A stretch of DNA of 63,022 nt from Nemertoderma westbladi. Its lineage: Eukaryota; Animalia; Xenacoelomorpha. Both the position numbers and the translations under genes were made by a program. How positions within the stretch are numbered: the first letter of the stretch is position 1; every line of letters begins with the position of its first letter. The stretch lies in contig JAUCBJ010000245.1 in assembly GCA_032718475.1 (NCBI GenBank), positions 1-63,022 of the forward strand, in the 5' to 3' direction. Shown in pieces: positions 2,123-38,545 of this stretch. The notes below the pieces were generated by a model. It was given only the letters and a program-made list of their open reading frames with translations. It had not been told where the DNA came from and searched no databases.

Positions 2123-2318
2123 ACCTAATCATAAGTTAAACTCTTTGCGGTTTTCAATAGTCATAAGCGATTGGTGATTGGTGATTGGTTTAAAATTATT
2201 TCCCTCGCTAGCATATAAATGTTTAGATATAGTCAATATCATATCGTTTCATTTTATTTTAATCTTTGGACATATTTTATTATTATTATTATTATTATTT
2301 ATCTAAACAAACTTCAAC

Positions 2319-4139
2319 ATGGATAAAATAACAATATGTTGTTCATTCTGTCATATGAATGTAACTAGACATAATTATTTACGCCACCTACGCTCGCATT
2401 TTGAAAGTTATTCTTGTTTTAAGTGTCATGTCGTGACTTCATGCAGCGAAATTTGTAAACGACATGAATCAACTACTGGTTGTAAAGAAATGGAGTTCCG
2501 CACCTATCAATTGACTTGTTCTACCTGTAATAAAGAGTATACATATGAGAATTATATACGACACGATTGTCACTTGAAATGTTACTACACAAGAAAGCGT
2601 AAATTTCCGCAACATAAAAATATAATATCCAGAAAAAACTTAAGGGTGGCTCTTGGTACATGCGCAACAATTTTTACGCGGGAACAAGAAGCTCACGATA
2701 ATCGTCTTGAAATTTATGTCCACGACCTCCCAACTTCTAGAGATTATCCCGATGTAGAAACAGCATTAGCGCAAATTCGAGGTAATATTCTTCAGTTAAT
2801 ATTAGATAGATTGAAAGAAATGAATGTTCTTAGATTGTGGTTAGGTCTAAATGTATTAATGTACAGATCACATTTTTCAGAAGGTGAGCAATTGGAAACC
2901 TTTTATTTTAATTCTTCCGGTGGTGCTATTAATACTGTAGATTCATCGCAAAGTTTTGACACATGGTTTGAGTATGTGGTGGAAAATATATTACAAAAAA
3001 TAGCCATCTTTAACACACGTGGTTCGGGGTGGCGTATTAAATCTTTATTAAGGGTTGAAATTAAATTAGCTGAATCTAAGTGTAGGTCGTTACTATATAA
3101 GGGGCATGGATATATGGAATTACCTAAGGCTCTATCAGGTAAACAGTGTGTTATAAATGTACAATCGGCTGATAATGACTGTTTTAAATGGGCAATTATA
3201 TCTGCAAAATTTGGTAGCAAAGTGAAAAACAACAAACAGCGCACTTCGTCGTACAAAAATTATATGAGTCATTTCATTTTTGACAATGGGAAAAATGATT
3301 ATCCAACAGAGTGGCAGTTAGCGATTAAACTTTTTGAAAAACAAAATTCAAAATATATAATTAATTTACTATGTTGGAATAACGACAACAAACGCACCCC
3401 CGTATCTATATTAAGACAACCTCCGTTTAGTAAAATTACACCCGATAAACAGTTATTAAATATATTACTTGTAGTAAAAAATAACAATGTACCTAAACTG
3501 AATCATTATGTTTGCATAACTAACCTGAATCGATTGCTGAATACGAGAGCTCTTCATATCGGGAATAGGAAATATTGCGAAAGGTGTTTGGCTCATTTTT
3601 TTCGTGCGGAAGTTCTTCATCGACACCGTCTCGCCTGCTACCAAGGAAGAAGTCAGCGAGAGACACTACCTAATAAAAAAAGAACACACATTAGTTTTAC
3701 AAATTTAGATAGAACCTTAACCCCATTGTTTGTCACCTACTTTGATATAGAATGTATCTTACAACCGTCAGTTAATAATCAAATTATACAGGAGCATATA
3801 CCGTGTGCTGTGAGTTATTTAATTGTTCCCAATACTGAATTAATTGATGCTCCAAAATGTCATTTGAAAACATTCGTAAAGTCAAATAATAATAATAATA
3901 ATTGTATTCAAGATTTCTTAGATTCATTATATACTGATTTAACTGAATTATGTTGTTGGTCAGAAATATACACGCATAAAACTATTTCATTTACTAATAT
4001 TGATTTTGTAAATTTTGAACAAGCAAAATTTTGTTTTTATTGTAATGTTACTTTAAATAATAATGTAGGGAAAAACAGACATCATTCACATATTACAGGT
4101 AAATATATTGCGGCAGCCTGTAATAGTTGTAACCGAAGT
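2319..4139 (+). CDS. pPolB: Protein-primed family B DNA polymerase, N-terminal part (interrupted by the BEL insertion)
   Basis: N-terminal Zn-finger-like motifs, GSGW motif, DNDCFKWAI...HYVCI, CERC finger, ExoI YFDIEC, EndoVII-like CFYC...HHSHITGKYIAAACNSCN. Confidence 0.93.
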
Positions 4140-6004
4140 TATAGAATTATATTCTCTAAATGCCATGGATTTTCAAAATTTTATTTTATTTGAATTAACT
4201 TTGTTAAAAGATTACATTAAGTCCTCATTTGTATTTGCTATATCTATTTGTACGATGATTAGTCAAGTGGTTCAGTAGCTCAGTCGGTAGAGCGTTGGAA
4301 ATTATATGTAGTGTGTATTGAGTTCGAATCCTAGTAGGTGTGAATTATTTTTTGTGCAGAATTTCAACTCATTTAAATTGACCGCTACAAATTAATTGCA
4401 TTTGCTCGAAGTAAGGTTAACCAATGAGACTGTAGTTATTAGATTGTAACCAATGTCGTACGAGTTATATATTTGCTGGACCAATAGCTATCTTTAAAAA
4501 CCTGTTAGAACTCATAGAACAATCAAGAATTTTCTCGATTGATTGCGGCACAAATTTGGTATAAAAGGTGCGATTTTGTTCATTAGTTCACTACACACTT
4601 CAATCACTATTACTTCTGTTTATTGTATAATAGTTATTGTTTGATTTTGTAATAAAAGTTAGAAATACTTGTCACATCTGCCCTTTTCTATCTGTTTTAC
4701 TATGCTTCACCACGGTGAACCCAACTAAGGGACAGGATGGCTGGCTAAACATCGGGCCACAGCAATGAACGGGAACATCTAAGGAATGTACGCAGGAGAC
4801 AACCCGCAATATCACTCTTAGTTATTCGCCTGAAAGGATAGACAGCGTTCGATGCCTTGCTACCTAAGTATAAGACCAAAGATCGAAGGTAGAGGTAGTG
4901 ACACGCTGTACGCCTAAAATTACATCTAGGGACTGTACTGTTTTAATTCAGGAAAAAACCGCAGTAGACCTTCATATTCCTACGGGGGGAGAGCAGGCAG
5001 AGATACTAGTACGCAGATAGGACGTAGGCACACCGGTACAAGGCATACACATTGGTAGGGTGCAGCAAACTGTACGCCTAACTCTTGCTAAGTACAGGTG
5101 CGTCTGTGACTATTTGTAGTACAACGGTGTCCATTGCATTAGAACTTGTAGGCTAGGAGGGTTGCTGTGTTTCACCTGAATTAGGATTGTACCGTTCAGG
5201 CGGTAGGGCAGTTTACGACTAGGCGCAAATAAATTGAGGCTATTTAGGGATACTAACATCTACCGTGTCCCCGCCGACATCCTGATAGGAAGTTACCAAG
5301 CCCACCTAGGTAACCAAAATTCTAGATAGGACGCCAGGCTAGCTATTAGTAACCGTACGCCTACTGTAGTAAACTAACATATTTCTTCTTAGTATTAGGG
5401 ACCTGGTAAATTAAAATTGCCGAATTCTGGGCGTAGTATTAACCTTATGCCTGAATTTGAGTCCTGGAAATACGCAAGAGGGGAAGGAGCCTTATCATTC
5501 GTGAGTATTGGACCTACAAGTTACAAAATTAGAATATTCGTAAAATGCACACCGTACCCAGTAATTATATATATGAAGGAGCAAAACTGATTTTGACGGT
5601 TCAGAATTAACACACGCGCGTTAGAAATTATTTACACCTCAAAATATATAAAATTAACTTTTGTCCGTACTGCGCTTTGCCCGCTAGTTAGACATCTCCA
5701 GATCTCTGCACCTAGCTAGCGTCCTTTTCGCCCAACCATATAAATCACATCGCGGCAAAGTATACGAGCCCCTTAGTCCGTCAGTGAGTCAGCCTGATTT
5801 TAGGATTCGCTGCGCGGGATTTTGTTTTATCGAAGTTTGTCTGTTCGTAGACTGTTTTCTGCCTCACCGGTTATAAGGGACCGATACTGCAATATATATT
5901 CGCTTACTTGGAGTTTACTGTTTTGGTGAGAAGGTCGGATTTATGATTTGATTCACAAACTTTACAGTAAGATATTGCAGGTATTGTTACTGTCTCTTCG
6001 AATA
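4140..6004 (+). repeat. BEL 5' LTR (1865 bp)
   Basis: Direct repeat of 19476-21347. Contains CCAAT boxes (~4420-4485), TATAAAAG (~4560) and AATAAA (4651). Confidence 0.93.
4269..4342 (+). other. tRNA-derived Pol III promoter module (A and B boxes) inside the 5' LTR
   Basis: A box/D arm TAGCTCAGTCGGTAGAGC and B box/T loop GTTCGAATCC. Acceptor and anticodon arms are degenerate. A T-run follows. Confidence 0.7.
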
Positions 6005-7061
6005 GTAGGAATATGTTTTACTGAACTATGGTTCGGTAGGACTAAAGTTATTCGAAAAATTTGTATTTTGAGGTAAAAGTTTATATTTGATTAGCTAAGT
6101 GCTAATTTTTTGAAATAAAATTTGATTTGAACCGCGTGTAAAATATTTTGGAATTTAATACCGGTGTTTAAAAGGGTTTAAATACCATATTGTACCGGTA
6201 CAAAATTTTCGTAAAAAGTAAAACCAAACTCTTTTGTTTTTCAGGATTCAGAACTCATTTCTAGACTGTAACGGGAGCAAGACCGTGTTTAGCAAGTTTG
6301 GGAGATAGATAACTCAACAACCTTGGTTGGGAAAATCGCACTTCATCCACAACGCTGGAAACGGAAAGGTTCACGTCCGGTTTGTATCTGGGAATCTGTT
6401 TTTCTGGAGAATTATTGGAGTGGGTGAGTTCGAAAAGTTGCATAAATAAGTTAGGCATTACCGTATTAGTTAAAATTATTGTGGGTTCCACTGTCTCAAG
6501 TATTTATGCATTCCGTACGATTTCTTTGTTTATTGCTGAATTAGTCCGTAATTATTTGTATTTGATTTATATTTTGATAACGCATATCGTTATCCGATTT
6601 ATTTGTTATAAAATTGGCCGCTAGGCTAATTTTATTATATACTTATTCCGTGACATTTATTTGCTGTAAAATTGGCCGTTTAGGCTAATTTTATCCATCT
6701 GCTATAAAATCGGCCGGTAGGCTAATTTTATATGACTGTAATTAGTACCGTTTAAATATAAATACGGTAAATTTGATACTTTGACACTCATATTTTACTT
6801 GACTTACAACTACCGAAATGAGTGATAAACAAGACTATACGAAGAATACACCTACCGACTATTACTCATGTGACGCGGATAAGTCAGCAGCGGAAGAACT
6901 ACAAGGGAAGACTCGCGAGCCTACCGAACCTACACCGTGTGCGTCACCAGTACATCCAACGGGAGTACCGGATGCCGTAGTACGAGGCGAGGACCGAGGA
7001 CTGAGGACCGAGGACCGAGGACTTTCTAACTGTTCCGCAACCTAGATATAGGGAAACGGAC

Positions 7062-9975
7062 ATGGTAAGTTCAGTAGGAAGCCAGGAGAGTGTGGTTAGA
7101 AGCGTCGGAGGCTACATGGCGCATATTACCAGGAGTATTGGGGAAGGCCAACGCATATTAGGCGAGCTAACCGCTCCGATGTCTCGGTTTGAGTTCTACA
7201 CCCTCCAGGTTAGAGTACAAAGTAGAGTACATAAGTCCGTAGATAATCTAATTGGTCTACAAGATCTAGCTAGACAGAGACAGGACGTGGATACTCAACT
7301 TAGAATCCTCGAGAAACTAATGATCGCTAGAGAGAAACTGATTCAGTTTAAGTCGACGATTAGGCAGATACAACAGGAACAAGCGGACCAGTTGTTAGGT
7401 GAGTCAGTTTTGGACGAATTATTGCAGCCCGAGGAAGAACAGGAACTGTACCGACTGGATGGACAATTGAAACATCTGACGGACCACTTACGTATGTGCG
7501 GCGAAGACGTCGGCGATTTGGAAACCGTGCCGGAATATACGAGGGAAACTTCACCCGTACAAATCGAATCGGCACCGGGAATACTGGACCAAACGTTAGT
7601 GAGTATTCGCAGCGAAATTGGCGAGATAAGTATAGTGATGTCAGAAATTTCCAGACAGCAACAACAGCATTATAGACAACAACGGGAAGTTGAGGAACAA
7701 GCTCAACTGTTGACGGCACAAGCGGCGGTAGAAGAAGAAAAACTACGCGTTGCAAATGTTGCGAGAATCTCTCATCTGCAAGAACAAGCTGAGTTGGAAG
7801 CAGCCGAAATGGAAAGGCTAGAGTTGGACATTGCACAACAAGCGGCAGCGGCCGAGTTAGAGCGACAAGCGGCAGCAGCAGCGGCCGAGCTAGAGCGACA
7901 AAGGTTAGTTTCAGAAGCGAGAGCCGAGATGAAAAAACGGCAAATAAAGGCTCAATCAGCTATACGACAAGCGGAGTTCGAGGCGCAACAACAACAGACG
8001 GAACAACGCGAGAAAGAAGTTAAACTTCATTTCGAACTCGAGAAGAAGGCAAGAGAATTAGCCAACGCGAAGGAAGATCTGGATCTACAAGCCCGCGATC
8101 AATCGATGAGATCTCGAGATGGACACGATCTAGACCAGTTAGAGGTAAGGCACCGCCAAATTCAGGAACGAATGAAGGAAGGAAGTGTAGGGGCACCTGG
8201 GCGAGAAAGACAATTGGTTAAAGACTTATGTCAAAGATTCCCTCAAGTAACTCCTATGTTTGTACCGATTACGACTAAGGAACCTGTTTCGATTGCTGGT
8301 AGTAGTAATATTTCTCCTATCCATGGTGCGACGGAACACAGGTTTGTTATTCCGGACAAGTTTACACCGCCAAGAGCAACATCGTCGCCCATTCTGAAAG
8401 TCAAGGTAAGTAACCCACCGATTACAGATCGTAGTAGTTTGTTGACCGGACCTGCACTACTGACGACAAAACGGGTGAGTCCACCTTCGACACCAAAACT
8501 CGTTACGCACTACACGTACCCAATGACGTTTAGGCCTACAAAGCCTTTGGATTCAAACGCTGTCGTCCGACCACCGTTTAATCAGTTTACATCGCAATCT
8601 ACGACTTCGAGGAAGACTTATGAGCCTACCGAACAACGGAGACCAGTGGATACGCGACCGTTTAATCAGTTTACATCGCAATCTACGACTTCGAGGAAGA
8701 CTTGTGAGCCTACCGAACAACGGAGAACAGTGGACGATGTTCCAAAACGGAATGTTAGAATTCGAACGACACAACGGACGCGAGCACGTCAACCACCGTA
8801 TCCAGGTGATAGTAGTACTTCGAGTGAATCGGATTACCCGAAACGCGAGGTATTTAGAACAGGAGCGGCCGACGAATATAAACGTGAGCGTTCAGATAAC
8901 TCCTTTATCGATAATCCTCCACAAAATACACCAACACAGAAAGCGTTACAACCAACAGACGTGATTAGTACGCAACAATTCGCCGATCTAATGCGACCAG
9001 TTGTAGATAAGTTGGCCCAGATAGAGGAACGTTTAGAGGAAACTCAAACTGATAGTTCGCGAGGTAACGAGTTCGAACACTCTAGACACCCGAAGCAGCA
9101 AAGAAAACAACCCTCGAGAAACACCTCGTATCAAGGAAAAGCGCCAAGACGAGAGAACATCAATTCGATTGCCAACCAAGGACGCGAAACTTTGAACGTG
9201 GCCGAGGAGATAGCGAAATTCGCAGCGAGACAAGTTTTACCGGTGCAACAACCACCGAAGTTTTCAGGTAACTCGAAACATTGGCACACTTTTGTGGACT
9301 ACATCGAAACCCAAATAGCAGCGTGCGCCTTTACATCGAGGGAGAAATTCAACTACCTGCTACAAACGCTGACGGGAGAACCGAAACGTCTAGCGGAAAC
9401 CTTTGTCGGTGTACCAGATGCCTTCGAACTAGCGTATGATCGCTTAACTTCGATTTACGGAGGTACCGTGAGTATGGCTAAGTCAGTGATAGAAGAACTC
9501 TGTAAGGGGGGGGGCTATAACAAAACCCGTTGACTTACTGAAATTAGCTGACGAGATTAAGAACGCCATTACTACACTACGCTCGATTGGACAACTTGAC
9601 TACGCGAACACTCCGACAGTCCTATTAAAAATAATAGGAAGATTACACCTTCGACTTCGTCGGGAGTGGCGAAAGATAGAATATCAGCGAGAAGAGAGAG
9701 GCGGATTCTTGAAGTTGGAAGACGTCTACTTACTAATATCCAGAGAGGTAGTAGTCGAGACGCGTTCGAACTACACGGACCAACATATCGTGGCGGAAGG
9801 AATAACATTACCATCCTCGAACCGACAAAAACCCCAAACAACATCCACCAAGACGGTTACTTACGCCACATCGACCGACACCCGACAATTTTCAGACAGT
9901 AATAAGGTATCCGCACCAATTGGAACCAAACAGATCCGACAGCAACTGAGCACAGACTTTAACGGTTACCTAAAG
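7062..9975 (+). pseudogene. gag: BEL gag N-terminal/capsid region, frameshifted at G9 run 9506-9514 and interrupted at 9976
   Basis: Coiled-coil region followed by BEL gag motif PPKFSGNSKHWHTF...KFNYLLQTLTGEP...AYDRL. After the frameshift the reading continues into ORF 9709-9981. Confidence 0.88.
8574..8735 (+). repeat. 84-bp in-frame tandem duplication in gag
   Basis: PFNQFTSQSTTSRKT(Y/C)EPTEQRR occurs twice. Confidence 0.9.
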
Positions 9976-11150
9976 AGGTGAGGTCTCTATAGGGGTGACC
10001 GTAGCAGGCGGCGGCAGACTCGTGAGGGTCTGGGGGCACGTTAAATCAAGTCTAAGTGCAAGGGAGATACTGAAGGCCCTCGTGTCTAACGAACCATGAA
10101 TTGCCATGGTGCCGTGGTACCGTCTAGTCGGCCTGTTGCCGTACTGCCAGTCCTGTACACAGTAGGGGTGGTGGCGTGGCGTGATTTGTGGCTCATGTGG
10201 CGTGAACTATGTTTTGTATGTGGGCGATCAGTGGCAGTTTGCTTGGGGCTTGGATGGTTCCATTGACCGTCAGCTGTTCCGTTTTTTTGATACTATATGT
10301 TATTGTCTCCATGTTCAGCTGATTTGGTCTTTGGTGGCATTGGAATAAACCGTCGGGTCTTGAGTTTTCTGTTGCTGTGGGTACGTGAGTACACGTGATT
10401 GTATGTGTGGCCACTGCGAGTGGGTATGGGAACCCTTGCCAGTTGGACAAGACGCCGCTGGTATTAGTAGGACCATACTTTACTGCGCCCCAGCATACTT
10501 TGTGCACACAAAGTTATTTTACCCTGTCGGTAAAATAAAGTACTCTCGATTTGCCTCCGATCGATACAATTTGTCCCTTCTGATTTTGACCCCGATTTTG
10601 TCTTTACCCGATTATGTCCTCTGTGTGTGCATGGTATGTGTCAGATTTTGTGTTTACCGTAGTGTACTTGATTTCGTGAACATCTGTTGAGTACACATGT
10701 ACAGGACGGGTAAGTGGTTACTTGTTCCTAGCTTTCGAGCTAGTCAATATTGTTTGTGGAACTTACTTCCCCTCAATATTGCCGGCGAGGCAGGTGAAAA
10801 CGTGTCAAAATTCCAATGTTGGGTAGCGGAAGCCCGCTTGGGACAAGACCGTCGGTTAGGCCCAAGGGCGACCTTGGTGCTCGATCGCTATCGACTGGTC
10901 CACCTGCCGGTTGACTCTTTGTTATACTTTGAGTTGGCTCAATGTACAGTCAGGCCACAGTAAGTTGACAGTAGCCGCCCATCTGGCTACACGTTCGACG
11001 AGCTGTGCTGGTGTGATCGGGGGACCGAAAACAGAACTCGGGAAGCATCAGGCCACCCTCCGGCCCGGTCTGATAATAACATCTGTCGGACTGGCCCCAG
11101 GGGTGGTGGAAACACGTCCGCCTCATGGGTGCGCCTCGGGGAGGAGCCCA
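9976..11150. mobile_element. 1175-bp non-coding insertion in BEL gag, possibly a solo LTR
   Basis: 4-bp TSD AAAG at 9972-9975 and 11151-11154. Removal restores NGYLK-DESGQYCER in frame. Ends in CA and has internal AATAAA. Confidence 0.75.
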
Positions 11151-14100
11151 AAAGGACGAAAGCGGCCAATATTGTGAACGGCTAGGTAAACGACATACTA
11201 GCCATAAACTGAGAGGTTGTCGACTATTCCGCGAATTGAACTCAGAGGAACGACGACTACAAATACGGCCATTGGACTCTTGTTGGCGGTGTACGCTACA
11301 TGGACATGTCCGTAAAGACTGCCCAAATACAGACACTTGTCCTTCCTGTGGACGCAACCATGACGGTTTGCTCCACACAGACAGTCATACGCCGCCCAAA
11401 CGCTTCACCAGGGAACACCCGGAAGCGGCAGCAAGATGCAACACAGCATATAAGGGTCGAGAGTCGAAAACAACACCGACTTTCGTGACTCACATTAGAG
11501 ATTGGTTCTCGGAACAATCAGGATCGTCGGAGGAAGAGTCGGAAGACGACGACGTTTACTTTGATACTGGAGACGAACAACCATCGATTGCGCTTCTGAC
11601 GCCTGATCAATTAAAGGGGTTTAGTATAATTCCTGTCAAGATTACTGGCACCAAAGGAAGCAAGAGGATCTACGCTATCCTGGATTCAGCCTCATCTCAT
11701 AGCTACGTGGATGAGAAAGTAGCTGATGTTGTGACGGATCTCCGACAAGGTAAGAACGTCAGTTACACCGTAAGTAGTATGCATGGACAACGTGCAATAC
11801 CAGTGACACGAGTTAAGTTGAACTTAGACACTCTTCTTCCGAAATCGCAACATAGCGAAAAGGAGAGGTCTTTGTTACCCTTTAAAGATTTAACCTTTGC
11901 GGCCACAAAGGACTTTAGTAACCTACTAGGTCCTGTCCCAGAACAATCCTTGGAGGACCGTAAGTACTTCAGACACCTTGGTGTACCTGAATGTCCTGTC
12001 AACTATAGGTCGGTAGCAATGCTGATCGGGACAGATCAATTCAACCTACATCAAGTGTGGGAAACCAGACCATCGGCAGTCGTAGCGGGAAACGCATACG
12101 CCTGTAGAACGCCGATAGGGTGGTATACTCGAGCGCCTGTGCGCACACTGGATATAAGTGACGAGGAAGACGATATACAAAGTACATGTAGTTTATTAAC
12201 TACAACTTCGACTCATTCCTTTTCACACGACCGAGACTATACTACACAAGCGTCGACAAAACACGACAACATGACAAGTACGACGTGTGTAGCTAATACG
12301 ATAAGTCACAAGGAGCAGCTAATCCACCAGGTGAGTTTAGAACTTGGGAAGAAGACGAGTCAGCCAGAGATTCCATCGACGACAGATGATAACGCCGGAA
12401 GGCTTGCGAGTCTACCTCAACCAATAACCTCAACAATGCCTGTCGATATCGATGATGACGCGTTAAGAAATCATCAAGTGGAACAAGCTGCATTGGACAA
12501 AGAATTAACGGAGAAGACTATCAGGTGGTTAGAACAAGATACAGCTGAACCTGGTAGCTACGAACCATGTATGTCGGAACAAGAGAAACAATCTTTGAAG
12601 ATCATGGAAGATACTATCCGCCAGACGAAAGACGGACATTATGAGGTAGGGATGCTATGGCGTAACCAACGTCCTAAACTCATAAATAACTATCCGCTAG
12701 CCTTAAGACGTTTACACTCAATACGACAACGTCTATTAAAGGACGAGAAAGCCCATCTGCAGTATAATACTCAGATGGAGACGTATTTAACGAAGGGATA
12801 CGCTATCAGAATGACTAACCCAGAGATTGTGACTGACCAGACATACTACTTGCCACATCACTACGTGAGACCAGACAAACCAGACAAAGTACGTGTAGTC
12901 AATGACTGCGCGGCTCTGTTTGAGGGAATGTCCCTCAATAGTGAGTTAATGGATGGACCAAACATGAATAATTATCTTATGGGGGTGATTATGCGCTTCC
13001 GTCAGCGTCAAGTAGCCTTTACTTGTGACGTCGAAGCTATGTTTCACCAAGTGCGAGCGTTTTCGGTGCCAGGGACAGCCCAAACTGTACGATGTACGCC
13101 CTAAAGCAAGCCGCTAGGGATCAGAAACATATATATGACCCAGAGATAATCAAGATCGTAGAACGCGACTTTTACGTGGACGATGGTTTACAGAGTTGTG
13201 ACACAGTAGAACGTGCTATTACAGTAGCACATCAATTACGGGACTGCTTAGCGGGCGGAGGTTTTAACCTCACCAAATTCGCCTCAAACAGTGCCGAATT
13301 GGTAGACTCATTCGGAATGACTGAGCGTGGAGGTGGTGACATTGACCTAGAGTTCGAACCACTACCGACGACCAAGGTGTTGGGGCTCTTTTGGGACCCA
13401 AACACGGACAACTTTCGAGTGAAGGTGAGACTGGACACTCAAGAAAACATTCTGACAAAGAGATCCTGCTTGTCAAAATTGAGTCGATTATTCGATCCAT
13501 TAGGATTCATCAGCCCAATAATACTGCAAGCCAGAATTTATATGCGCAGCATTTGGAAGGATGGACTGACATGGGACGAGCCGATCTCATCAGAACAAGT
13601 GGACTTATGGAAAACCTGGGAGGCAGAATTATCTTCAATAGAGGATTATTCCATACCCAGAGTGTACTTTCCATTACAAACGACATTTCCTGACAACTTG
13701 GAATTACATTGTTTCTCCGACGCCAGTGACAACGGCTTTGGTGTGGCAGCGTATTTACGCAGACAAGTAGACTCAGACGAGTTTGATGTTTCGCTCATTA
13801 CTTCTAAGGCTAAAACCATGCCTACTAAGTATATGACGACACCACGCGCTGAGCTACAAGCCGCAACCCTGTCAACCACAATCGTGAACCTTATACAGAC
13901 GGAACTACAGTCAAGTTTACAGATATTTTATTGGACTGACGCGACGTTGGTTTTATTTTACATAAACAACGACACACTTGAATTCAAGACATTCGTAGCT
14001 AACCGTCGCGCAGAAATTCTAGACCGTTCAATAAAGGAAGATTGGCGACATTGTCCCGGACCACAAAACCCAGCCGATATTGCGTCGCGAGGAATGATGC

Positions 14101-16512
14101 CTGAGGAATTCTGTAAACCGGAGAACAAAGAATTTTGGCAACACGGACCACAATTCTTGCAAAGATCAGTACAACATTGGCCGCCACTATACGACAACAA
14201 GTCTAACACTATCCCTAAAGACGCGGAAATTAAAAAACCAAAGAAAGGGAAAGCAAAGAAAAGGACGGCGGCTAAACTCAAGAAAAAACCGAAGGCGAAA
14301 TGGAAAGATATAACTTCAAAGGTCAAGAGCGGAAGACTTGCGAGCCTTTCTACACCAGACATATCGCCAGACGCGTTACTAGACGGTCAACCAGACGTTT
14401 TGCCAGACATATCACAAAATGTTCTACCAGACACTAGTAACATATTGACAAATAGTAAAGCCGCAGTTTCTCTATTGGAGCGGCCTTCTATAGACAAACA
14501 TCCAGACACGTTACCAGACGTATCGCCAGACGCGTTACTAGACGGTCAACCAGACGTTTTGCCAGACATGTCACTAGATATTTCGCCGGATGTTCCGCGA
14601 AACATTTTACCAGACATGTCACAAAATGTTCTACCAGACACTAGTAACATATTGACAAATAGTAAAGCCGCAGTTTCCCTATTGGAGCGGCCTTGTATTG
14701 ACAAACTACCAAATTTGACACACTTGAGTAACCATAAGCACAGTGAAACCTCATGTATTACAGATGTGGGTAGTACCTACGTAAATGTAAATACAGGTGT
14801 TACTTTGCGCTCAAGAGACATACCAAACTTGCAACCTATGGTGAGACCTGGGATTAATATCGGCAGAAAAATAAGTTTACCGAAACCCAGTGACCCCATA
14901 GAGTTCAAACCACCATTAACGATCGACTTACAAAGTACTGACAACCAGGGTAAGAAAACAAAGAAGGACAAATTACTTGTAGACCCGGACGGATCAACAG
15001 TCAACAAGGGAATACCTACCGGCGGACCCGTGGGCCCTTCTAGTAAATCAAAACCTTCCAAATTCTCCATTGACTTACCTGATGACGTCACAAATACTTA
15101 CGTCGACCGTATTGTAAACTTAACAGATTCTTGGACAAACGCTTGCCGAAAATTAGCGTGGATTGTACGTTTTGTACAATACGTTAAAGGCAAACGCGAC
15201 TTTACACGTCGACTTACATTGACTGAGATTGACAGGTGTGAAATTAAATTAATTCGCCATTACCAACTGCGATATTTCGCGCGCGAATTCACATCTATAA
15301 ATCAAGGTCAACCAATCAAGTCGTCACCAATATTGAGTTGGAGTCCGATAATTTATAATGGCTTAATTTGTCATAAATCTCGGCTTGAAAACATTGACTT
15401 TAACACAAACTTTAGATACCCAATAATAATACCGCAGCATCACGAATTACAACGTGCAATGATACTGGACGCACATTTACATCTGAAACACGCTGGAAGA
15501 CACCACTGTCTTTCCTACTTACGTACAAGATTTGTATTAATTAGACCCAGTAAAGCGTTAAGTTCAGTGACACGTACGTGTATTATTTGTAAAAAGGTAC
15601 ATTCTAGAATAGGTACCCAAGAAATGAGTGAACTTCCACAAGCACGACTTCAAGCATTCAGACCACCTTTTACAGAGACTGGAATTGATTGCTTTGGTCC
15701 CATACATACGAAACGTGGACGTATACTAGTAAAACGCTGGGGACTGATTTTCACATGTATGTCCAGTAGGGCAGTTCATATTGAACGTGTGATGGATCTT
15801 TCCACCAACGCGTTTATACTAGCATTGCGGCGATTTATCGCTAGACGCGGACTAGTGAAATGCTTGTACTCAGACCAAGGGACAAACTTTGTTGGTGCCC
15901 GAAATGAAATTGCTAGAGCCTTTAAGAAATTAGATCATGATCAAATCTCAAACGAACTACGTCCTTACAAGATTGTTTGGAAGTTTAATCCTCCAGATAG
16001 TCCATGGAGAGGCGGAGTCTGGGAGAGATTGATTAGATCTATAAAAACAGCCATGGCGAAAGTAATTCCAGTAAACCACATTTTGACAGACGACCAACTG
16101 ACTGACGACCAACCAACTGACTACTTTGACGCCTATTTCTTTTCCAACAGAAAGCGACAGCTACGGTAGAAAAGCGTGGAAAATCACGCAACTACTAGCT
16201 AACAAATTCTGGGAAATATGGCAAAACCATTATTTGCCCTCTATTTCTGCCAGAACAAACTGTTACAATAACACCCGCGCATTAAAGCCGGGAGATCACG
16301 TGCTGTTAGCAGAAGTGAATCTAAAAAGACGCTTCTGGATAACAGGTGTAATTTTAGCCACACATCCATCTATGGATGGAGTGACAAGAACTGTGACGGT
16401 ACGGACAATTGACGGTCGTACAGTAGACAGACCGACTCAACGTCTCGTACTTCTTGAAGAGACTCGTAACGAGTCTGGAGACTACAAATCTCCAACTAAT
16501 ATTAGTAAATAA
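11151..16512 (+). pseudogene. pol: BEL gag Zn knuckles plus pol (PR, RT, RNase H, integrase), with deletions and frameshifts
   Basis: CWRCTLHGHVRKDC, CPSCGRNH, protease ILDSAS, RT YLPHH...DVEAMFHQV and FYVDD, RNase H HCFSDAS, integrase HHCC, GIDCFGP, SDQGTNF, GGVWERL. Frameshifts near 13060 and 16120. Confidence 0.93.
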
Positions 16513-17067
16513 TTAGGAGTTTACAAATAGATTTCCACGTACCTGTACACCATAGTAAGGACAGCGGTAGAATTCCATTGTCTTTATATGTGAACATTGA
16601 GGGTAGTACCCTTATGTGTCACATAGGAGCGGGATTTGTAGGTATAAGAAATGGAATTCTACTTGGAACTCACAATATTGAGACATTTTCGAAATTTTAG
16701 ACAATCCATTTGGATTTGAAAAATTTTTAAAATTTTCTCCAGTGAATAGATTTCAGGGTACAGTCGGGTGGAACTTAAAATTAGAGAAACAAGAGAGGAA
16801 GACTTGCGAGCCTTTCTTAAAATTTTAATTTAAATTTTACACGGTCTTGTTTCAATAAGTTACGTCAATAAATAGACTTCCCTATATTTATTACTAATTC
16901 TTGACTGCTTATTTTCTGATAATAGTTTGGGATCAAAAAGTGAGTATTTTTGACTCACAGCCAGTTTAGCCCAAATTCGTTTTTATTTCGGCAAAAAATT
17001 TTAGATAAGAAGCAGCGTGTCATTAAAGAAACCCTAGATCTTAGGCTATGGGTAGGAGGTTAGAGCG

Positions 17068-18072
17068 TTGTCGAGCCAAAAGGGCAGACGAAAACTCTCA
17101 CGTCTCCTCACAACTAACTACAAACTCTGTTGTATTCCCTCTAGTAGTAATGATTATGTAACTACACCTCTAATTATGGAGAAGGAGATACATGGAGAGC
17201 CGAGATGGGGATATGATATCCAAGAGGAAGCAGCAGCGCCATTCGAAAGATTTGGAGCCAAAGAATACACTATATTTGGTATAAAAGAATTATCAGAAAG
17301 TACTGCGAAACTCGCGAGAACTAAATATGACTCGAATGTATTAAAGAGAAGGCAAAACGCATTAAATGAAAGAATCGAAAGTTTGCGCAAAACCTTCAAT
17401 GAACTTTACCCGTATGACGCTTTGTGTGATACGGGAGACATTAGCGAAGACCCCGATACTGAAATTAGTGGTTTGTATCATACCATGCAATACCTAAAGG
17501 CGCACGAACCTATGCCTGCGGTACGAGATGAATTCGATGGAATGCACCTTTACAGACGAACTCGAGGGGACGATAGAGAAACAAAGGAAGCATTTTCAGT
17601 TTATAAACTTTATTATCAATGCGGTTCTTGTATGCGCGAACAACGAAATGCGATTCCAATGCGTTTGAATAAGGAAAATCCCGAACCGATATTGGCGAGG
17701 TGTTCGAACCATCAACAACTACGCTACCAGGAAGGAGGGTATCCTTTATCAAATCCATATCATTCGTTTGCTATGACTGGACCAAAGGCGGGAGAAACTG
17801 TCGTTTACCCACCTAAGGTTGTTGAACCCGATGCATTTGAACTTACGCTGGACGAGGCGAATCAGTCAACCCGCGAAAAGAAAGAAGCTCTTAGCCTATA
17901 CAGAGCCTACAAGGCTTTCGAGAAAGGTGAGATGGAAGAATGGGGCGGAAGACTCGCGAGCCTACCTTACCATTGGACGTCACACGATCAAACTTCAGCT
18001 AAGGAGATGACACCGGAAATTTTCGAAAGTATAAACTTTGCCCAAAATGTTCAATCGTATCACATATGGTGA
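17068..18072 (+). CDS. Extra ORF downstream of the BEL integrase, unknown function
   Basis: 334-codon ORF (likely ATG ~17197) in the env position. CGSC...RCSNH is a possible metal-binding site. No hydrophobic TM segment seen. Confidence 0.6.
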   Translation: MSSQKGRRKLSRLLTTNYKLCCIPSSSNDYVTTPLIMEKEIHGEPRWGYDIQEEAAAPFERFGAKEYTIFGIKELSESTAKLARTKYDSNVLKRRQNALNERIESLRKTFNELYPYDALCDTGDISEDPDTEISGLYHTMQYLKAHEPMPAVRDEFDGMHLYRRTRGDDRETKEAFSVYKLYYQCGSCMREQRNAIPMRLNKENPEPILARCSNHQQLRYQEGGYPLSNPYHSFAMTGPKAGETVVYPPKVVEPDAFELTLDEANQSTREKKEALSLYRAYKAFEKGEMEEWGGRLASLPYHWTSHDQTSAKEMTPEIFESINFAQNVQSYHIW

Positions 18073-18688
18073 ATTTGACCGTTTTCGAACAGAAAAGCGA
18101 AATAAAGGAGCTTGGTTAACCGTCGCATGGGCGTACCGAGCCGCGTTCTATCATAGGCGTATACGAGCGAGCGTATTCGAGGAAGAGGAGATCCTAGAGG
18201 CGACCGACATACCAGCCACTCCGGTTGCGCCGTCTCCACGTCACCCTCGGGAGGACGGACAGGGTAGGATCATAAGGGTCCAGAAAGTGAGCCAACAATT
18301 AAAGAAGTCTATTAATATAGAAGAACGCAAGGGAGTTGAGCCGACCATTCGAATTACTCGGGATACGGTATCGCTTCCTAGAGAACCAACAGGAGGATCG
18401 GGACATACACCAGCTGATCAAAAGGGGGCGCAAGCTACTCTTGGGTCTGCGTCGTCCGCTTCCCGCGCGTTCCCAGACGTTTTACCAACTGTAGTGACAA
18501 CTGATCGGTCACGAGGAATCGGTCGAGGTTTCGGGATACCAAATAGACGAATTTGTGAGGAAATGGTCGCACCGTCTCCCAACGTCCAAACGAAACCAGT
18601 GACTCGCCCCACGAGTCCCATATCGCGAGCAAAGTCACCTGTGCGCAGTTTTCGAGGACACGGCAGGGCTCGATCCACTAAGCGATAA
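18038..18688 (+). CDS. Second extra ORF, or frameshifted continuation, basic and Pro/Arg-rich
   Basis: 216 codons, overlapping the end of the previous ORF in the +1 frame. Confidence 0.5.
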   Translation: MPKMFNRITYGEFDRFRTEKRNKGAWLTVAWAYRAAFYHRRIRASVFEEEEILEATDIPATPVAPSPRHPREDGQGRIIRVQKVSQQLKKSINIEERKGVEPTIRITRDTVSLPREPTGGSGHTPADQKGAQATLGSASSASRAFPDVLPTVVTTDRSRGIGRGFGIPNRRICEEMVAPSPNVQTKPVTRPTSPISRAKSPVRSFRGHGRARSTKR

Positions 18689-19475
18689 AAGGGAGGGCAA
18701 GGGTGGACGGAAGACTCGTGAGCCTTTCTTGTGAATTTGTGATTTATTTGAATTATATGTTTTATATTTAGTAAGTTTTGTATTCTGGAAGATTCATATT
18801 TAGTAAGATTTATATTTAGAAGAAAGTTATATTTTGCAAGATTTATATTTTATATTTGTGATTATTCCAAACTTATGCAATTTATATTGTTCCGAATACT
18901 ATGCAATTTATATCTTATAAGCAGTATTTGTATTTACAGTGAAATAGAAAGTAAGAGTAGATGGAAGACTCGTGGGCCTTTCTTATAGTTTCATTTGTAA
19001 AGTGTTATATTTTGTATTTAGAAAGTTTTATAGTTAGAAAGTTTTGTACTTAGAAAGACTCATATTTGTAATTATTCCGAACTTATGCAATCTACATTTA
19101 GGCACGAAAGTATTTGTAATTATTTGAATTTATGCAATATTTGAGATGCAAGAGTAGATGGAAGACTCGCGAGCCTTTCTTATGATTTTCATTTATTTGT
19201 ATTTGTAATTGTTTGAATTTATGCAATATTGAGATGCAATAGATTTATATTGGTGAATTTAATTTAGATGTATATTGTACTTACTTAGTAAAGCCTTAAA
19301 TATGTAAAGTTTGAATTTGTAATTATTTTGTATCGAATCATTATGTAGAAAGGAAGTATTGCTTGAAATTTAATTTGTAAATATGTAAGTACACCCTAAG
19401 CATTCTATAATTTGATTGATTATTGGTGAAAACCGTATATTTTATGCACGATAATATCCTGTTTTCATGGAGCGG

Positions 19476-21347
19476 TATAGAATTATATTCTCTAAATGCC
19501 GTGGATTTTCAAAATTTTATTTTATTCGAATTAACTTTGTTAAAAGATTACATTAAGTCCTCATTTGTATTTGCTATATCTATTTGTACGATGATTAGTC
19601 AAGTGGTTCAGTAGCTCAGTCGGTAGAGCGTTGGAAATTATATGTAGTGTATATTGAGTTCGAATCCTAGTAGGTGCGAATTATTTTTTGTGCAGAATTT
19701 CAACTCATTTAAATTGACCGCTACAAATTAATTGCATTTGCTCGAAGTAAGGTTAACCAATGAGACTGTAGTTATTAGATTGTAACCAATGTCGTACGAG
19801 TTATATATTTGCTGGACCAATAGCTATCTTTAAAAACCTGTTAGAACTCATAGAACAATCGAGAATTTTCTCGATTGATTGCAGCACAAATTTGGTATAA
19901 AAGGTGCGATTTCGTTCATTAGTTCACTACACACTTCAATCACTATTACTTCTGTTTATTGTATAATAGTTATTGTTTGATTTTGTAATAAAAGTTAGAA
20001 ATACTTGTCACATCTGCCCTTTTCTATCTGTTTTACTATGCTTCACCACGGTGAACCCAACTAAGGGACAGGATGGCTGGCTAAACATCGGGCCACAGCA
20101 ATGAACGGGAACATCTAAGGAATGTAGGCAGGAGACAACCCGCAATATCACTCTTAGTTATTCGCCCATCGCCTGAAAGGTTAGACAGCGTTCGATGCCT
20201 TGCTACCTAAGTATAAGACCAAAGATCGAAGGTAGAGGTAGTGACACGCTGTACGCCTAAAATTACATCTAGAGACTGTACTGTTTTAATTCAGGAAAAA
20301 ACCGCAGTAGACCTTCATATTCCTACGGGGGGAGAGCAGGCAGAGATACTAGTACGCAGATAGGACGTAGGCACACCGGTACAAGGCATACACATTGGTA
20401 GGGTGCAGCAAACTGTACGCCTAACTCTTGCTAAGTACAGGTGCGTCTGTGACTATTTGTAGTACAACGGTGTCCATTGCATTAGAACTTGTAGGCTAGG
20501 AGGGTTGCTGTGTTTCACCTGAATTAGGATTGTACCGTTCAGGCGGTAGAGCAGTTTACGACTAGGCGCAAATAAATTGAGGCTATTTAGGGATACTAAC
20601 ATCTACCGTGTCCCCGCCGACATCCTGATAGGAAGTTACCAAGCCCACCTAGGTAACCAAAATTCTAGATAGGACACCAGGCTAGCTATTAGTAACCGTA
20701 CGCCTACTGTAGTAAACTAACACATTTCTTCTTAGTATTAGGGACCTGGTAAATTAAAATTGCCGAATTCTGGGCGTAGTATTAACCTTATGCCTGAATT
20801 TGAGTCCTGGAAATACGCAAGAGGGGAAGGAGCCTTATCATTCGTGAGTATTGGACCTACAAGTTACAAAATTAGAATATTCGTAAAATGCACACCGTAC
20901 CCAGTAATTATATATATGAAGGAGCAAAACTGATCTTGACGGTTCAGAATTAACACACGCGCGTTAGAAATTATTTACACCTCAAAATATATAAAATTAA
21001 CTTTTGTCTGTACTGCGCTTTGCCCGCTAGTTAGACATCTCCAGATCTCTGCACCTAGCTAGCGTCCTTTTCGCCCAACCATATAAATCACACCGCGGCA
21101 AAGTATACGAGCCCCTTAGTCCGTCAGTGAGTCAGCCTGATTTTAGGATTCGCTGCGCGGGATTTTGTTTTATCGAAGTTTGTCTGTTCGTAGACTGTTT
21201 TCTGCCTCACCGGTTATAAGGGACCGATACTGCAATATATATTCGCTTACTTGGAGTTTACTGTTTTGGTGAGAAGGTCGGATTTATGATTTGATTCACA
21301 AACTTTACAGTAAGATATTGCAGGTATTGTTACTGTCTCTTCGAATA
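19476..21347 (+). repeat. BEL 3' LTR (1872 bp)
   Basis: Copy of 4140-6004 with a 7-bp insertion and scattered substitutions. Preceded by short purine-rich GGAGCGG. Confidence 0.93.
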
Positions 21348-21352
21348 GAAGT

Positions 21353-23596
21353 TTATCATTGAAACGATACCTGTATGTACTTTGCGGACATAATTCCAAC
21401 AATTACGATATACATTGTATATTACAAAGCGGATTTAGAGATAAGAAATATACAGATTGGGATATAAAGGTTATACCGAGAAATACAGAACGATATATTT
21501 CACTGAGTGCATTTATCCCAATTAAAAACACTTCTAAGAAAATTGAGTTACGTTTCTTAGACACATATCAATTTTTAAGCTTTTCTTTAAGTAATTTAGT
21601 TGAGTGTTCAACAAAGGATGTAGCGAGTCATGATATAAGCTCAATTTTACCTATTACTCTACAAGAAATGAAATATTTTTATCCAAACTTGAATAACTCA
21701 ACAATTAAATGGAAAGGAGTATTTCCATACGAGTACTTGACAGATATAAATAAATTTAATGATACTGGTTTGCCGTCTATAAATAATTTTTTTAGTAACT
21801 TAAGTCAAAAAACATGCACAATTGAAGATTATAGGTTTGCGGGAATATCATGGGTAGAATTCGACTGTGTGAATCTCAAAGATTATCTTTTAGCCTATTT
21901 AAAACTCGATGTTTGTTTGCTTGCTGATATATTTGAGAATTTTAGGAATGTTTGTAAACAAAATTACGATTTAGAAGCGGTTTTTTACTGTAGTATCGCG
22001 TCATTTACCTATGATTGCGCGCTAAAATATAATAAATGTAAAATAGAATTAATAAAGGATTATCAGACATATAGAGATTTTGAAAAATCAATTAGGGGTG
22101 GTGTTTCATTTTGTCGAAAGCATTATATAGAATCAAATATACCAGGTACAAGTACATATGATTCTACTAAGGAAGAATGCCATATTTTTAATATTGATTT
22201 CAACTCTTTATATTCTGGGAATTTAAGTAAAAAACTACCCACCTCACAATTCAAAGAAGTAAGTATTAAACATTTAGAGAATGCAATTCCAGAAAAACTA
22301 ATCGAGTACTTGGTAGATTTAGACATTGATGGATCTACTGGATATTTTTTAATATGTGATTTAAATTATCCCAAGGCTATTCACGATCAAACATTACAAT
22401 TACCGTTAGCCCCTGAGCATTTAAGTATAAATGAATCAATGCTTTCGCCTTATATGATGGAACAATTTAATAACTTGTCAATACAAAGAGGTACCTCCCG
22501 TAAATATAGAATGTCTATACCAAAACTCATGCTGACGCAATTTGATAAAGAGTTTTATCATTTACATTTGAAACTGTTAAAATTTTATATAAAACATGGA
22601 TTAATTGTTACTAAACTACATAAATTATATTCTTTTCAACAAGAATTTGTATTTAAAAATTACATCGATTTTAATATTAATCAAAGGCGACTGGCAAAAA
22701 GTTATATTGAAACAGCTGTCGCGAAATTGCTCAATAATTCGTTGTTTGGCAAATCAATAGAAAAGATAAGAGATCGATGTAACTTTCGTATCGCAAATAG
22801 CAACGATAAATGCGATCAATTGGTAAATCGTATTAATCATGAACAATTTATAATATACAATAATACACTATCGGGACATTTATTAGTGAAAGACTCTGTA
22901 ACTCTCGATAAGCCTATATTTATTGGTAGCACTGTGTTGGACTTGGCTAAATTGGATATGTATGAGCTGTATTACAATAAATTGCTACCTATTGAGAAAG
23001 AATTAAACTGCCGTATTGAAATTGCTGCATCAGACACTGACTCGTTGATAGGTTGTTATTATAATACATCGCAGAATAATTTTTTAAAAGCATTAATTAA
23101 AAATAATATTTTAGATACATCCAATTACCCTAAGGATCACCCACTCTACAGCGATAAAAATAAATCCAGACTCTATTACTGTAAAGACGAACTAGCCTCG
23201 CGTGAAATTAAACAAGCAGTATTTTTAAGACCAAAATTATATTCAATTTTGGAATGGAATAATAAAAATATTCGTAGAGCAAAAGGTATTACAAGAGCTG
23301 TTGTGGAAACGAATATTACACATGAAGAATATTTAAAAGCATATAACTCAAATGAAGAAATAAAAAAAATCATACACAGATTTCAATCTAAATTACATCG
23401 TATTTATACCTTAAAGCAAAATAAATTTGCACTCAGTAGCTTTGATGATAAACTTTATTGGGTTAATAAAAATCAATCACTTCCTTGGGGGCACTATAAA
23501 ACAAACCTCAAAAAACCTATAAAAATATCAAATATACCAATTTATGAAGAACCAAAAGACGATGGTGTTGATGATGAATTATCAAATAGTAAATAA
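21353..23596 (+). CDS. pPolB: pPolB C-terminal part (exonuclease II/III and polymerase motifs)
   Basis: HNSNNYD, FLDTYQF, KGVFPYEY, YLKLDV, motif A IDFNSLY, motif B KLLNNSLFGK, motif C SDTDS, AKGI. Joins 2319-4139 in frame to give ~1354 aa. Confidence 0.96.
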   Translation, partial: LSLKRYLYVLCGHNSNNYDIHCILQSGFRDKKYTDWDIKVIPRNTERYISLSAFIPIKNTSKKIELRFLDTYQFLSFSLSNLVECSTKDVASHDISSILPITLQEMKYFYPNLNNSTIKWKGVFPYEYLTDINKFNDTGLPSINNFFSNLSQKTCTIEDYRFAGISWVEFDCVNLKDYLLAYLKLDVCLLADIFENFRNVCKQNYDLEAVFYCSIASFTYDCALKYNKCKIELIKDYQTYRDFEKSIRGGVSFCRKHYIESNIPGTSTYDSTKEECHIFNIDFNSLYSGNLSKKLPTSQFKEVSIKHLENAIPEKLIEYLVDLDIDGSTGYFLICDLNYPKAIHDQTLQLPLAPEHLSINESMLSPYMMEQFNNLSIQRGTSRKYRMSIPKLMLTQFDKEFYHLHLKLLKFYIKHGLIVTKLHKLYSFQQEFVFKNYIDFNINQRRLAKSYIETAVAKLLNNSLFGKSIEKIRDRCNFRIANSNDKCDQLVNRINHEQFIIYNNTLSGHLLVKDSVTLDKPIFIGSTVLDLAKLDMYELYYNKLLPIEKELNCRIEIAASDTDSLIGCYYNTSQNNFLKALIKNNILDTSNYPKDHPLYSDKNKSRLYYCKDELASREIKQAVFLRPKLYSILEWNNKNIRRAKGITRAVVETNITHEEYLKAYNSNEEIKKIIHRFQSKLHRIYTLKQNKFALSSFDDKLYWVNKNQSLPWGHYKTNLKKPIKISNIPIYEEPKDDGVDDELSNSK

Positions 23597-24125
23597 AAAT
23601 ATAAGTTGTAAGCAGATTATTTATGGACTTAATTTAAAAGAATTAAAAAATCAATTGAATGGTAAAATTGTACTCAAACCTAATCAGTTTATATATAAGG
23701 TATTTGGTGCAACCATATTAATGTTTACAAATGGACGAATAACAATTCTCGGTAGAAAATATAATTTTAATAAAGTGAAAAAACATATATTAGAAAAAAC
23801 AAACATTAATTTGATTTTTAAATCAATCAATTTGTGTACTTATATTTTTAGTATCGATACTGTAATTTATAGGTTACTTATAAACAATATCGGGTTTTAT
23901 GTTATATTTGATAATGTTAAACTAGAAATTTCATACGATCCTGAAATATTCAATAACTGTAAAGTCAGAATAAATAATATTGTTGTTGTTTGCTGTTTCT
24001 ACACTGGTAAATGTACATTAATGTGTTCCCCGTTTAAATTTCATATATATTATCCTATATTCAACAAACTGGTTAATAATTTATTATTGTTTGGTGTGGG
24101 GGTTTTTGATGTAAAATATAATTAG
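23544..24125 (+). CDS. TATA-binding protein (TBP)-like protein
   Basis: Two-repeat TBP pattern. Repeat 1: QIVNKNIS...LNLKEL...ATILMFTNGRITILG. Repeat 2: SINLCTY...SYDPEIF...VCCFYTGKCTL. Confidence 0.72.
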   Translation: MKNQKTMVLMMNYQIVNKNISCKQIIYGLNLKELKNQLNGKIVLKPNQFIYKVFGATILMFTNGRITILGRKYNFNKVKKHILEKTNINLIFKSINLCTYIFSIDTVIYRLLINNIGFYVIFDNVKLEISYDPEIFNNCKVRINNIVVVCCFYTGKCTLMCSPFKFHIYYPIFNKLVNNLLLFGVGVFDVKYN

Positions 24126-34559: not shown

Positions 34560-34583
34560 TGACCCCCCCAGACTCGGAAAGAG

Positions 34584-38455: not shown

Positions 38456-38530
38456 GGTGAAGGCGTTGGAGCGGGGCGCGAATAACGGGAGGGCTGTTGG
38501 TTGCAGTTCGACTCAACAAATCGTGCTGAG

Positions 38531-38544: not shown

Positions 38545-38545
38545 A

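What the first reader, a model, noticed from the sequence alone, without database searches (positions are those of the whole stretch)
4135..21352. Unusual BEL lineage: TA...TA termini, 1.87-kb LTRs, no visible PBS
Both LTRs begin TATAG and end GAATA instead of TG...CA, yet the TSD is clean (5 bp, or 6 bp GAAGTT if the first T is host). The sequence after the 5' LTR is GTAGGAATATG, with no TGG-type PBS. About 1.35 kb of LTR lies downstream of the AATAAA. This suggests altered integrase end recognition and non-standard priming.
Basis: partly seen in the sequence, partly recalled or inferred. Interest (0 to 1): 0.7.

Follow-up and report, generated by a model that had tools for sequence, protein, structure and literature searches.

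The report
Self-priming BEL retrotransposon with TA ends
A jumping gene of the BEL/Pao group ends in TA instead of the usual TG...CA and has no tRNA landing site; the 11 letters at that site pair exactly with a stretch of its own terminal repeat, and copies in the same species vary at both places in matching ways, so it likely starts DNA copying with a piece of its own RNA.

Summary
Real, and the missing primer site has an explanation. A 17.2-kb BEL/Pao element (LTRs 4140-6004 and 19476-21347, 99% identical) interrupts a Polinton polymerase gene. Ends read TA...TA with a 5-bp duplication; public contigs support the right end, the left end rests on this copy. The 11 bases directly after the 5' LTR (6005-6015) are the exact complement of LTR 4973-4983 (3 of 5000 shuffles), which sits on the LTR's only Inr+DPE promoter match. 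Family contigs carry T4975C; I predicted A6013G, and it was the only substitution then listed in 161 bases, in three studies (linkage on one molecule not shown). Best reading: Tf1-like self-priming, which my searches found described only for Ty3/gypsy and Ty1/copia groups. Three of 7 readable distant BEL relatives show the same pairing but keep TG...CA. This scan noted BEL self-priming before on other DNA (5 notes); TA ends, the population covariation and a tRNA-like unit in the LTR are added here. Start site, cleavage and integrase preference are inferred, not shown. This copy is broken.

The parts
4135..4139 (.). left target-site duplication GAAGT
   Evidence: sequence
4140..6004 (+). 5' LTR, TA...TA ends, 1865 bp
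   Evidence: right end
4269..4353 (+). tRNA-like RNA polymerase III-type unit in U3: A box 4276-4287, B box 4322-4330, six T at 4348-4353; not a foldable tRNA
   Evidence: (only the two LTR copies in the window), 0 of 2000 shuffles; no ARAGORN or Rfam tRNA hit; box consensus recalled
4560..4656 (+). upstream TATA box (4560) and first AATAAA (4651); possible second or older promoter unit
4973..4983 (+). candidate self-primer, exact complement of 6005-6015; overlaps Inr-like 4972-4978 (A4974 = predicted +1); copy in 3' LTR at 20316-20326
   Evidence: variant T4975C
5001..5005 (+). DPE-like AGATA at +28 to +32 of A4974
   Evidence: 1 of 18 Inr-like sites has it; 2.2% by chance; consensus recalled
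5228..5233 (+). second AATAAA, candidate working poly(A) signal downstream of the primer
   Evidence: function inferred
6005..6015 (+). primer-binding site without TGG, no spacer after the LTR
   Evidence: variant A6013G
7005..9981 (+). gag region in two frames (DUF1759 at the end of the first)
10050..10950 (.). block with reversed AT skew and no open + frame, probably inverted or foreign; edges approximate
11080..13104 (+). three Cys-His knuckles, protease, first part of RT
13029..16512 (+). rest of RT (YVDD), RNase H, integrase (D, D, E present), DUF5641; frame breaks near 13.06 kb and 16.1 kb
17056..18688 (+). extra 3' coding region in two frames, no known relative
   Evidence: 0 hits among 1.84 billion representatives for its first 298 aa
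19469..19475 (+). short polypurine-tract-like GGAGCGG directly before the 3' LTR
   Evidence: similar tracts before TG in relatives
19476..21347 (+). 3' LTR, TA...TA ends, 1872 bp
21348..21352 (.). right target-site duplication GAAGT
2307..4139 (+). target: first part of a Polinton/Maverick-type B-family polymerase gene
   Evidence: matches aa 138-508 of P0245
21348..23596 (+). target: second part of the same polymerase gene
   Evidence: matches aa 508-1152 of P0245

Best explanation
This is a recently inserted but broken copy of a high-copy, divergent BEL/Pao retrotransposon family with TA...TA ends, which likely primes reverse transcription with its own RNA: the 11 bases at LTR 4973-4983, predicted to be the start of the transcript, are exactly complementary to the 11 bases right after the 5' LTR. 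Shown: the ends in this copy, the complementarity, matching variants at both places in family contigs. Inferred: transcription starts at an Inr+DPE promoter at 4973/4974; the 5' end folds back about 1 kb onto 6005-6015; the element's RNase H cuts after base 4983, as in Tf1, leaving a 3'-OH; minus-strand synthesis starts at the last LTR base with no spacer; polyadenylation lies downstream of 4983 (AATAAA 5228), so enough R remains for strand transfer; plus-strand synthesis copies the primer back into the binding site, which passes changes at 4975 on to 6013; the integrase accepts TA-3' ends in place of CA-3' and makes a 5-bp duplication.
For: Exact 11-base complement starting at +1, unique in the LTR: 3 of 5000 dinucleotide shuffles, 27 of 5000 for any start +1 to +6. 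Same length as the Tf1 primer (PMC7175516, passage). Only 1 of 18 Inr-like sites in the LTR has a DPE-like pentamer at +28, and it is this one (2.2% per site by chance). Folding 4960-6030 gives the helix pair probabilities 0.92-1.0. T4975C is present at 20%, 24%, 16% and 100% of summed contig depth in runs X1, X2, X3, X4. The partner change A6013G was written down and then was the only substitution listed in 5930-6090: 39% (X1), 38% (X2), 31% (X4), three studies. T4975C alone weakens the duplex (-13.7 to -9.5 kcal/mol), both changes strengthen it (-15.6). A tRNA-templated site would be expected to be reset in each round, not polymorphic (inference). Of 7 distant BEL loci with a readable LTR end, 3 have a TGG-type site and no self-complement, 3 lack TGG and have an 11-12-base self-complement (0, 3 and 1 of 300 shuffles), 1 has neither; in L049 the complement begins 31 bases after a TATA box.
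Against: No RNA evidence of start site, poly(A) site or cleavage. The two variants are 1 kb apart and were never seen on one contig; their shares differ (about 20% against 38%), summed depth is no copy number, and A6013G alone is tolerated as a G-U pair, so it could drift without T4975C. Only 40 of 143 substitutions were displayed, so other changes in 4973-4983 may be hidden. A good TATA box at 4560 and AATAAA at 4651 offer another promoter layout, and the 3' LTR's first AATAAA must be read through (7 more AATAAA lie in the internal region, so read-through is common). Folding from 4580 loses the helix (probability 0.0). One X2 contig leaves the LTR behind 6003, not 6004, and 10 loose ends were hidden. 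The left end and the duplications of other copies were not seen. Trees do not group this element with the self-complementary relatives. Host tRNAs could not be compared.
Confidence: 0.75

Rival explanations
1. The 11-bp helix is a structural long-range contact (packaging or translation switch), and priming is done by an unidentified host RNA such as a tRNA half.
For: tRNA halves prime some Ty1/copia lineages (PMC6317226, passages); host tRNAs were not available; covariation fits any conserved helix.
Against: The helix occupies exactly the bases where a primer must bind, from +1 with no spacer; the site is polymorphic in step with the LTR; in relatives TGG-type sites and self-complements exclude each other in 6 of 7 loci.
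Confidence: 0.11
2. Self-priming, but from a longer RNA started at the TATA promoter near 4585-4590: the primer is a roughly 400-base 5' fragment cut after 4983, in cis or from the second packaged RNA.
For: TATAAAA at 4560 with Inr-like sites 25-30 bases downstream; in L046 the complement lies about 93 bases past the TATA-predicted start; a purine run follows 4983.
Against: Inr+DPE match exactly at the primer; the helix is not predicted for RNA starting at 4580; AATAAA 4651 would cut such RNAs short.
Confidence: 0.1
3. The tRNA-like polymerase III unit in U3 makes a small RNA that serves as the primer.
For: Perfect A and B boxes and a T run; its bases 4270-4277 complement 6019-6026.
Against: That 8-base match uses the RNA's 5' end and starts at +15; its 3' end has no complement of 7 or more bases at the LTR edge other than the 4973 match; it does not explain A6013G.
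Confidence: 0.03
4. On the termini only: T4140 is host DNA, the duplication is 6 bp (GAAGTT) and the element starts with A.
For: The sequence allows it; contigs of the uninterrupted polymerase gene match through 4140 (records 9 and 25).
Against: TAT...ATA is a 3-base inverted repeat; the T is present in the 3' LTR right after the purine tract; in plant non-canonical ends the first T never varies (10.1101/137141 and PMC9804982, passages). As a reading of the left end alone I give this about 0.25.
Confidence: 0.25

Closest known systems
Belpaoviridae (BEL/Pao), nearest named proteins from fish, echinoderm, mollusc and coral elements
   Same: DUF1759, three Cys-His knuckles, PR-RT-RH-IN order, Peptidase_A17, DUF5641; 5-bp duplication.
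   Different: Best identity about 40%, long isolated branch; 1.87-kb LTRs and 17.2 kb against 0.2-1.2 kb and 4.2-10 kb; no 18-base tRNA-Arg/Gly site (PMC8742986, whole text); TA...TA ends; extra 3' coding region without relatives.
Tf1/Tf2/Tj1 and the Tf1/sushi group (Ty3/gypsy); TAR lineage (Ty1/copia)
   Same: Primer site complementary to the element's own LTR; 11 bases as in Tf1.
   Different: Another superfamily; the loop between primer and site is about 1020 bases; start site and cleavage are shown for Tf1, only predicted here.
AtRE1 and other plant TATA-ended Ty1/copia elements
   Same: TA...TA ends (10.1101/137141, PMC9804982; passages).
   Different: Plant Copia elements with short LTRs (lotus TATA group averages 229 bp); this is an animal BEL/Pao element.
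Helenus (TRIMs with tRNA-like LTRs) and Cassandra
   Same: Polymerase III-type small-RNA sequence inside the LTR (PMC10886601, passages).
   Different: Those are short non-coding elements with tRNA primer sites; this is a 17-kb coding element whose predicted main promoter is polymerase II.

Membership tests
BEL/Pao superfamily (Belpaoviridae) | Gag and Pol related to BEL/Pao, domain order PR-RT-RH-IN | tested here: met
BEL/Pao superfamily (Belpaoviridae) | three Cys-His knuckles in Gag (PMC554778, passage) | tested here: met
   read from the translation; paper
BEL/Pao superfamily (Belpaoviridae) | 18-base primer site for host tRNA-Arg or tRNA-Gly (ICTV description) | tested here: not met
   no TGG until +25; profile. 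Hence filed as a variant, not an ordinary member
BEL/Pao superfamily (Belpaoviridae) | LTR 0.2-1.2 kb, genome 4.2-10 kb (ICTV description) | tested here: not met
   1865/1872 bp and 17208 bp
BEL/Pao superfamily (Belpaoviridae) | TG...CA short inverted repeats (PMC3601003, PMC554778, passages) | tested here: not met
   TA...TA; relatives: 8 of 8 readable left ends TG, 7 of 7 right ends CA
BEL/Pao superfamily (Belpaoviridae) | polypurine tract of about 10 bases before the 3' LTR | tested here: inconclusive
   7 bases, 6 purines
named BEL/Pao clades (Sinbad, Suzu, Pao, BEL, Tas and others) | grouping with clade reference sequences | not tested
   no labelled references were at hand; trees leave the element on a long unresolved branch
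Tf1/sushi self-priming group | Ty3/gypsy chromovirus proteins | tested here: not met
   BEL/Pao families only
Tf1/sushi self-priming group | primer site complementary to 11 bases of the own LTR | tested here: met
Tf1/sushi self-priming group | those bases are the first bases of the mRNA | tested here: inconclusive
   Inr+DPE match only; rival TATA promoter at 4560
Tf1/sushi self-priming group | RNase H cut after base 11 makes the primer | not testable with these tools
   needs RNA or cDNA ends
TATA-ended plant Ty1/copia (AtRE1 type) | Copia proteins and domain order | tested here: not met
Helenus | tRNA-like sequence in the LTR | tested here: met
   A and B boxes plus T run, though not called by ARAGORN or Rfam
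Helenus | short non-coding TRIM with tRNA primer site | tested here: not met

The most novel reading that the evidence does not exclude
An undescribed deep BEL/Pao lineage has freed itself from host tRNA on its own, separately from the marine self-complementary BEL elements, and has at the same time moved both integrase-recognised ends from CA to TA across the whole family; living populations record the primer being copied into its binding site.
Probability: 0.35. Interest if true: 0.78.

Novelty: new variant of a known kind. Interest (0 to 1): 0.62.

Why it matters
BEL/Pao is the least studied LTR superfamily; the ICTV profile calls its replication poorly understood and assumes tRNA priming. 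Self-priming here would put tRNA-independent priming in a third superfamily and escape control through tRNA fragments (inference). The two segregating alleles make the claim testable with long reads alone. TA...TA ends without a tRNA site also mean that pipelines which demand TG...CA or a tRNA match would miss a family that is abundant in its host, and give a natural case for asking how much of the terminal CA an integrase needs.

Tried and rejected
No whole genome is held for this window, so copies could not be collected. No RNA holder listed; run X5 (organism B) laid nothing on 5930-6090: no verdict. The wide read-laying hid 438 loose ends, so the left terminus stayed untested. Viral contigs held no relative. 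None of the 79 metagenome loci belongs to this family (only 3 short nucleotide matches in the integrase region); 27 of 79 had too little flank, 33 of the other 52 showed no LTR pair, 19 showed one. L051 (also TG) was left out of the left-end count as unclear; L055 is the same family as L053 and was counted once; loose candidates in L025 and L054 were not counted. A splice-built primer was sought in the window's LTR: none of 10 or more bases; the match is contiguous. A 4-bp duplication with LTR end GAATAG was rejected. The tRNA-like unit is not a tRNA gene. The extra 3' protein found nothing in Pfam, PHROGs or the representatives; the Atlas did not answer. The careful integrase tree did not finish (quick tree used); the RNase H tree is FastTree only. 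PMC4748587 (passages) describes a different DPE and did not confirm the consensus I used, which stays recalled. PMC3118150 and PMC3286476 (passages) held nothing on BEL primer sites or ends.
Full report
1. Observation. The two LTRs are 4140-6004 and 19476-21347, with 16 substitutions and one 7-base indel (K2P 0.009). Both start TATAG and end GAATA, GAAGT flanks both sides, and GTAGGAATATG follows the 5' LTR. The element is BEL/Pao by Pfam (DUF1759, Peptidase_A17, DUF5641) and by domain order against full-length relatives. It interrupts the polymerase gene of a Polinton-type element: the left flank matches a relative up to residue 508 and the right flank from residue 508 (P0245, each flank compared alone). 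The copy is broken: several frame changes, a block of reversed AT skew at about 10050-10950 and missing integrase sequence near 16.1 kb. Near-identical LTRs around a broken interior suggest recent movement with proteins from another copy (inference).

2. Termini. Two ambiguities exist in one copy: T4140 may be host, and both LTR ends are followed by G. No genome is held, so I laid contigs of public runs. The family is abundant in organism A: 4549, 1924, 3201 and 141 records in four runs from three studies on 3800-6500. On 5930-6090, two X4 contigs leave the LTR right behind 6004, one X2 contig behind 6003, 16 of 26 loose ends were shown, and no T6003C is listed. The right end is therefore TA in the copies seen. 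The left end rests on the LTR pair, the TAT...ATA symmetry and the plant rule that the first T is invariant (10.1101/137141, PMC9804982; passages). TA...TA ends are known in plant Copia (AtRE1; same calls). Among 79 distant BEL loci, 8 of 8 with a readable left end start TG and 7 of 7 with a readable right end finish CA.

3. The primer site. 6005-6015 is the exact reverse complement of 4973-4983, which occurs once per LTR; 3 of 5000 shuffles give this at +1 and 27 of 5000 at +1 to +6; 11 of 13461 internal 11-mers have any complement in the LTR. The match does not extend on either side. It overlaps an Inr-like sequence, the only one of 18 in the LTR with a DPE-like pentamer at +28 (2.2% in shuffles; both consensus sequences recalled). 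A second AATAAA lies at 5228, downstream of it. An RNA starting at 4960 is predicted to form the helix (0.92-1.0), one starting at 4580 is not (0.0); kilobase-range folding is weak evidence either way.

4. Population test. One search listed T4975C in all four runs (18214 of 92694, 27928 of 113994, 38228 of 231676, 775 of 775 summed depth). Position 4975 pairs with 6013, so I noted A6013G as the prediction. One search listed one substitution in 161 bases: A6013G (X1 14565 of 37248, X2 15775 of 41891, X4 19.6 of 63.2; X5 no cover). Limits: no contig spans both places; the shares differ; 6013G alone pairs as G-U; 103 rows were hidden; one of the runs may be the window's own source.

5. Relatives. 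Best protein identity is about 40% in two searches. Of 7 loci with a readable LTR end, L003, L038 and L074 have TGG-type sites; L046 has a contiguous 11-base complement at +1; L053 and L049 have 11 and 12 bases across GT-AG introns (the L049 match starts at +3); L050 has neither (controls). The intron test was prompted by notes of this scan, which I read. In the integrase tree (88 rows, quick IQ-TREE) the window has a 1.64 end branch and falls in a 14-row group with the three tRNA-type loci (96), a placement the tool flags as unsure; in the RNase H tree (80 rows, FastTree) it is an unresolved deep branch outside the 49-row group that holds L046 and L053. One or several origins of self-priming cannot be told apart.

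6. Mechanism. I commit to Tf1-like self-priming from the transcript's first bases (0.75). In Tf1 the first 11 bases pair with the site and RNase H cuts between bases 11 and 12 (PMC7175516, passage; PMC4600332 and PMC5341516, passages). Here pairing and matching variants are shown; start site, cut, poly(A) site and integrase preference are inferred. Rivals: a structural helix with an unknown host primer (0.11), self-priming from a longer RNA started at TATA 4560 (0.10), the tRNA-like unit as primer (0.03).

7. What is known. ICTV describes Belpaoviridae as tRNA-primed, with 0.2-1.2-kb LTRs and 4.2-10-kb genomes (PMC8742986, whole text). Self-priming is reported for Tf1/sushi, Tcn1 and the Copia TAR lineage (PMC6317226, passages). 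Searches (self-priming with BEL/Pao terms; non-canonical ends) listed no paper whose title or abstract start reports either trait in BEL/Pao; I saw most of these as listings only. The library lacks most subscription journals, Repbase and GyDB; I did not read the supplements of PMC3118150 (LTR lengths per clade), and that of 10.1101/137141 is closed; both may bear on how unusual the lengths and ends are. This scan has five earlier notes of BEL/Pao self-priming in other genomes, none returned for TA ends, for a polymerase III unit or for this DNA. They are unchecked leads and are not counted as support.

8. Verdict. The feature is real. It is a new variant of a known kind: BEL/Pao by its proteins, working like Tf1 at the priming step, and not a member of the Tf1/sushi group. 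Interest 0.62.

Noticed in passing
window 6906, 8611, 8695, 12397, 14331, 16797, 17947, 18709, 18963, 19160 (+): A 17-base near-palindromic motif (GGAAGACTCGCGAGCCT, up to 3 mismatches) occurs 10 times inside the element, in coding and non-coding parts and in different frames, and 0 times in the other 45.8 kb (shuffled mean 0.005). Candidate RNA dimerisation, packaging or protein-binding signal.
   Followed up: partly
window 17056-18688 (+): Extra coding region between integrase and 3' LTR with no relative found; not env-like by eye.
   Followed up: partly
window 5993-6016, runs X1, X2, X4: Loose ends show subfamilies with a short duplication of the LTR end and primer site, and one with a near-complement of the site just downstream; possibly traces of irregular primer removal.
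   Followed up: no
window 6015-6042: By eye a hairpin directly 3' of the primer site; its 5' arm also complements the start of the tRNA-like unit (4270-4277).
   Followed up: no
L046:1-326 and 6694-7103: The 5' LTR has a splice-acceptor-like sequence where the 3' LTR has the contiguous 11-base complement, as if one LTR were unspliced and the other spliced; could also be a chimeric contig.
   Followed up: partly
L053:6920-7116, L049:6657-6745: Self-complements of 11 and 12 bases appear only across GT-AG introns of 186 and 77 bases, matching earlier notes of this scan.
   Followed up: partly
window 1-40428: Polinton/Maverick-type element with 74-base inverted ends, polymerase, adenovirus-type protease, integrase, ATPase and a TBP-like domain at 23523-24125; its flank at 3891-4139 is also deeply covered in the runs. 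Named polymerase relatives are mostly from insects.
   Followed up: partly
window 34342-38763 (-): A Ty3/gypsy element with identical 218-base LTRs, TG...CA ends, a 4-base duplication and a TGG-type site is nested in the same Polinton: a canonical control in the same host.
   Followed up: partly
window 13029-16169, about aa 385-690: About 300 extra, partly repetitive residues between RNase H and integrase that relatives lack.
   Followed up: no
window from about 53400 onward: Long satellite with a 38-base period; non-LTR RT fragments at 41471-43105 and 44511-46119.
   Followed up: no
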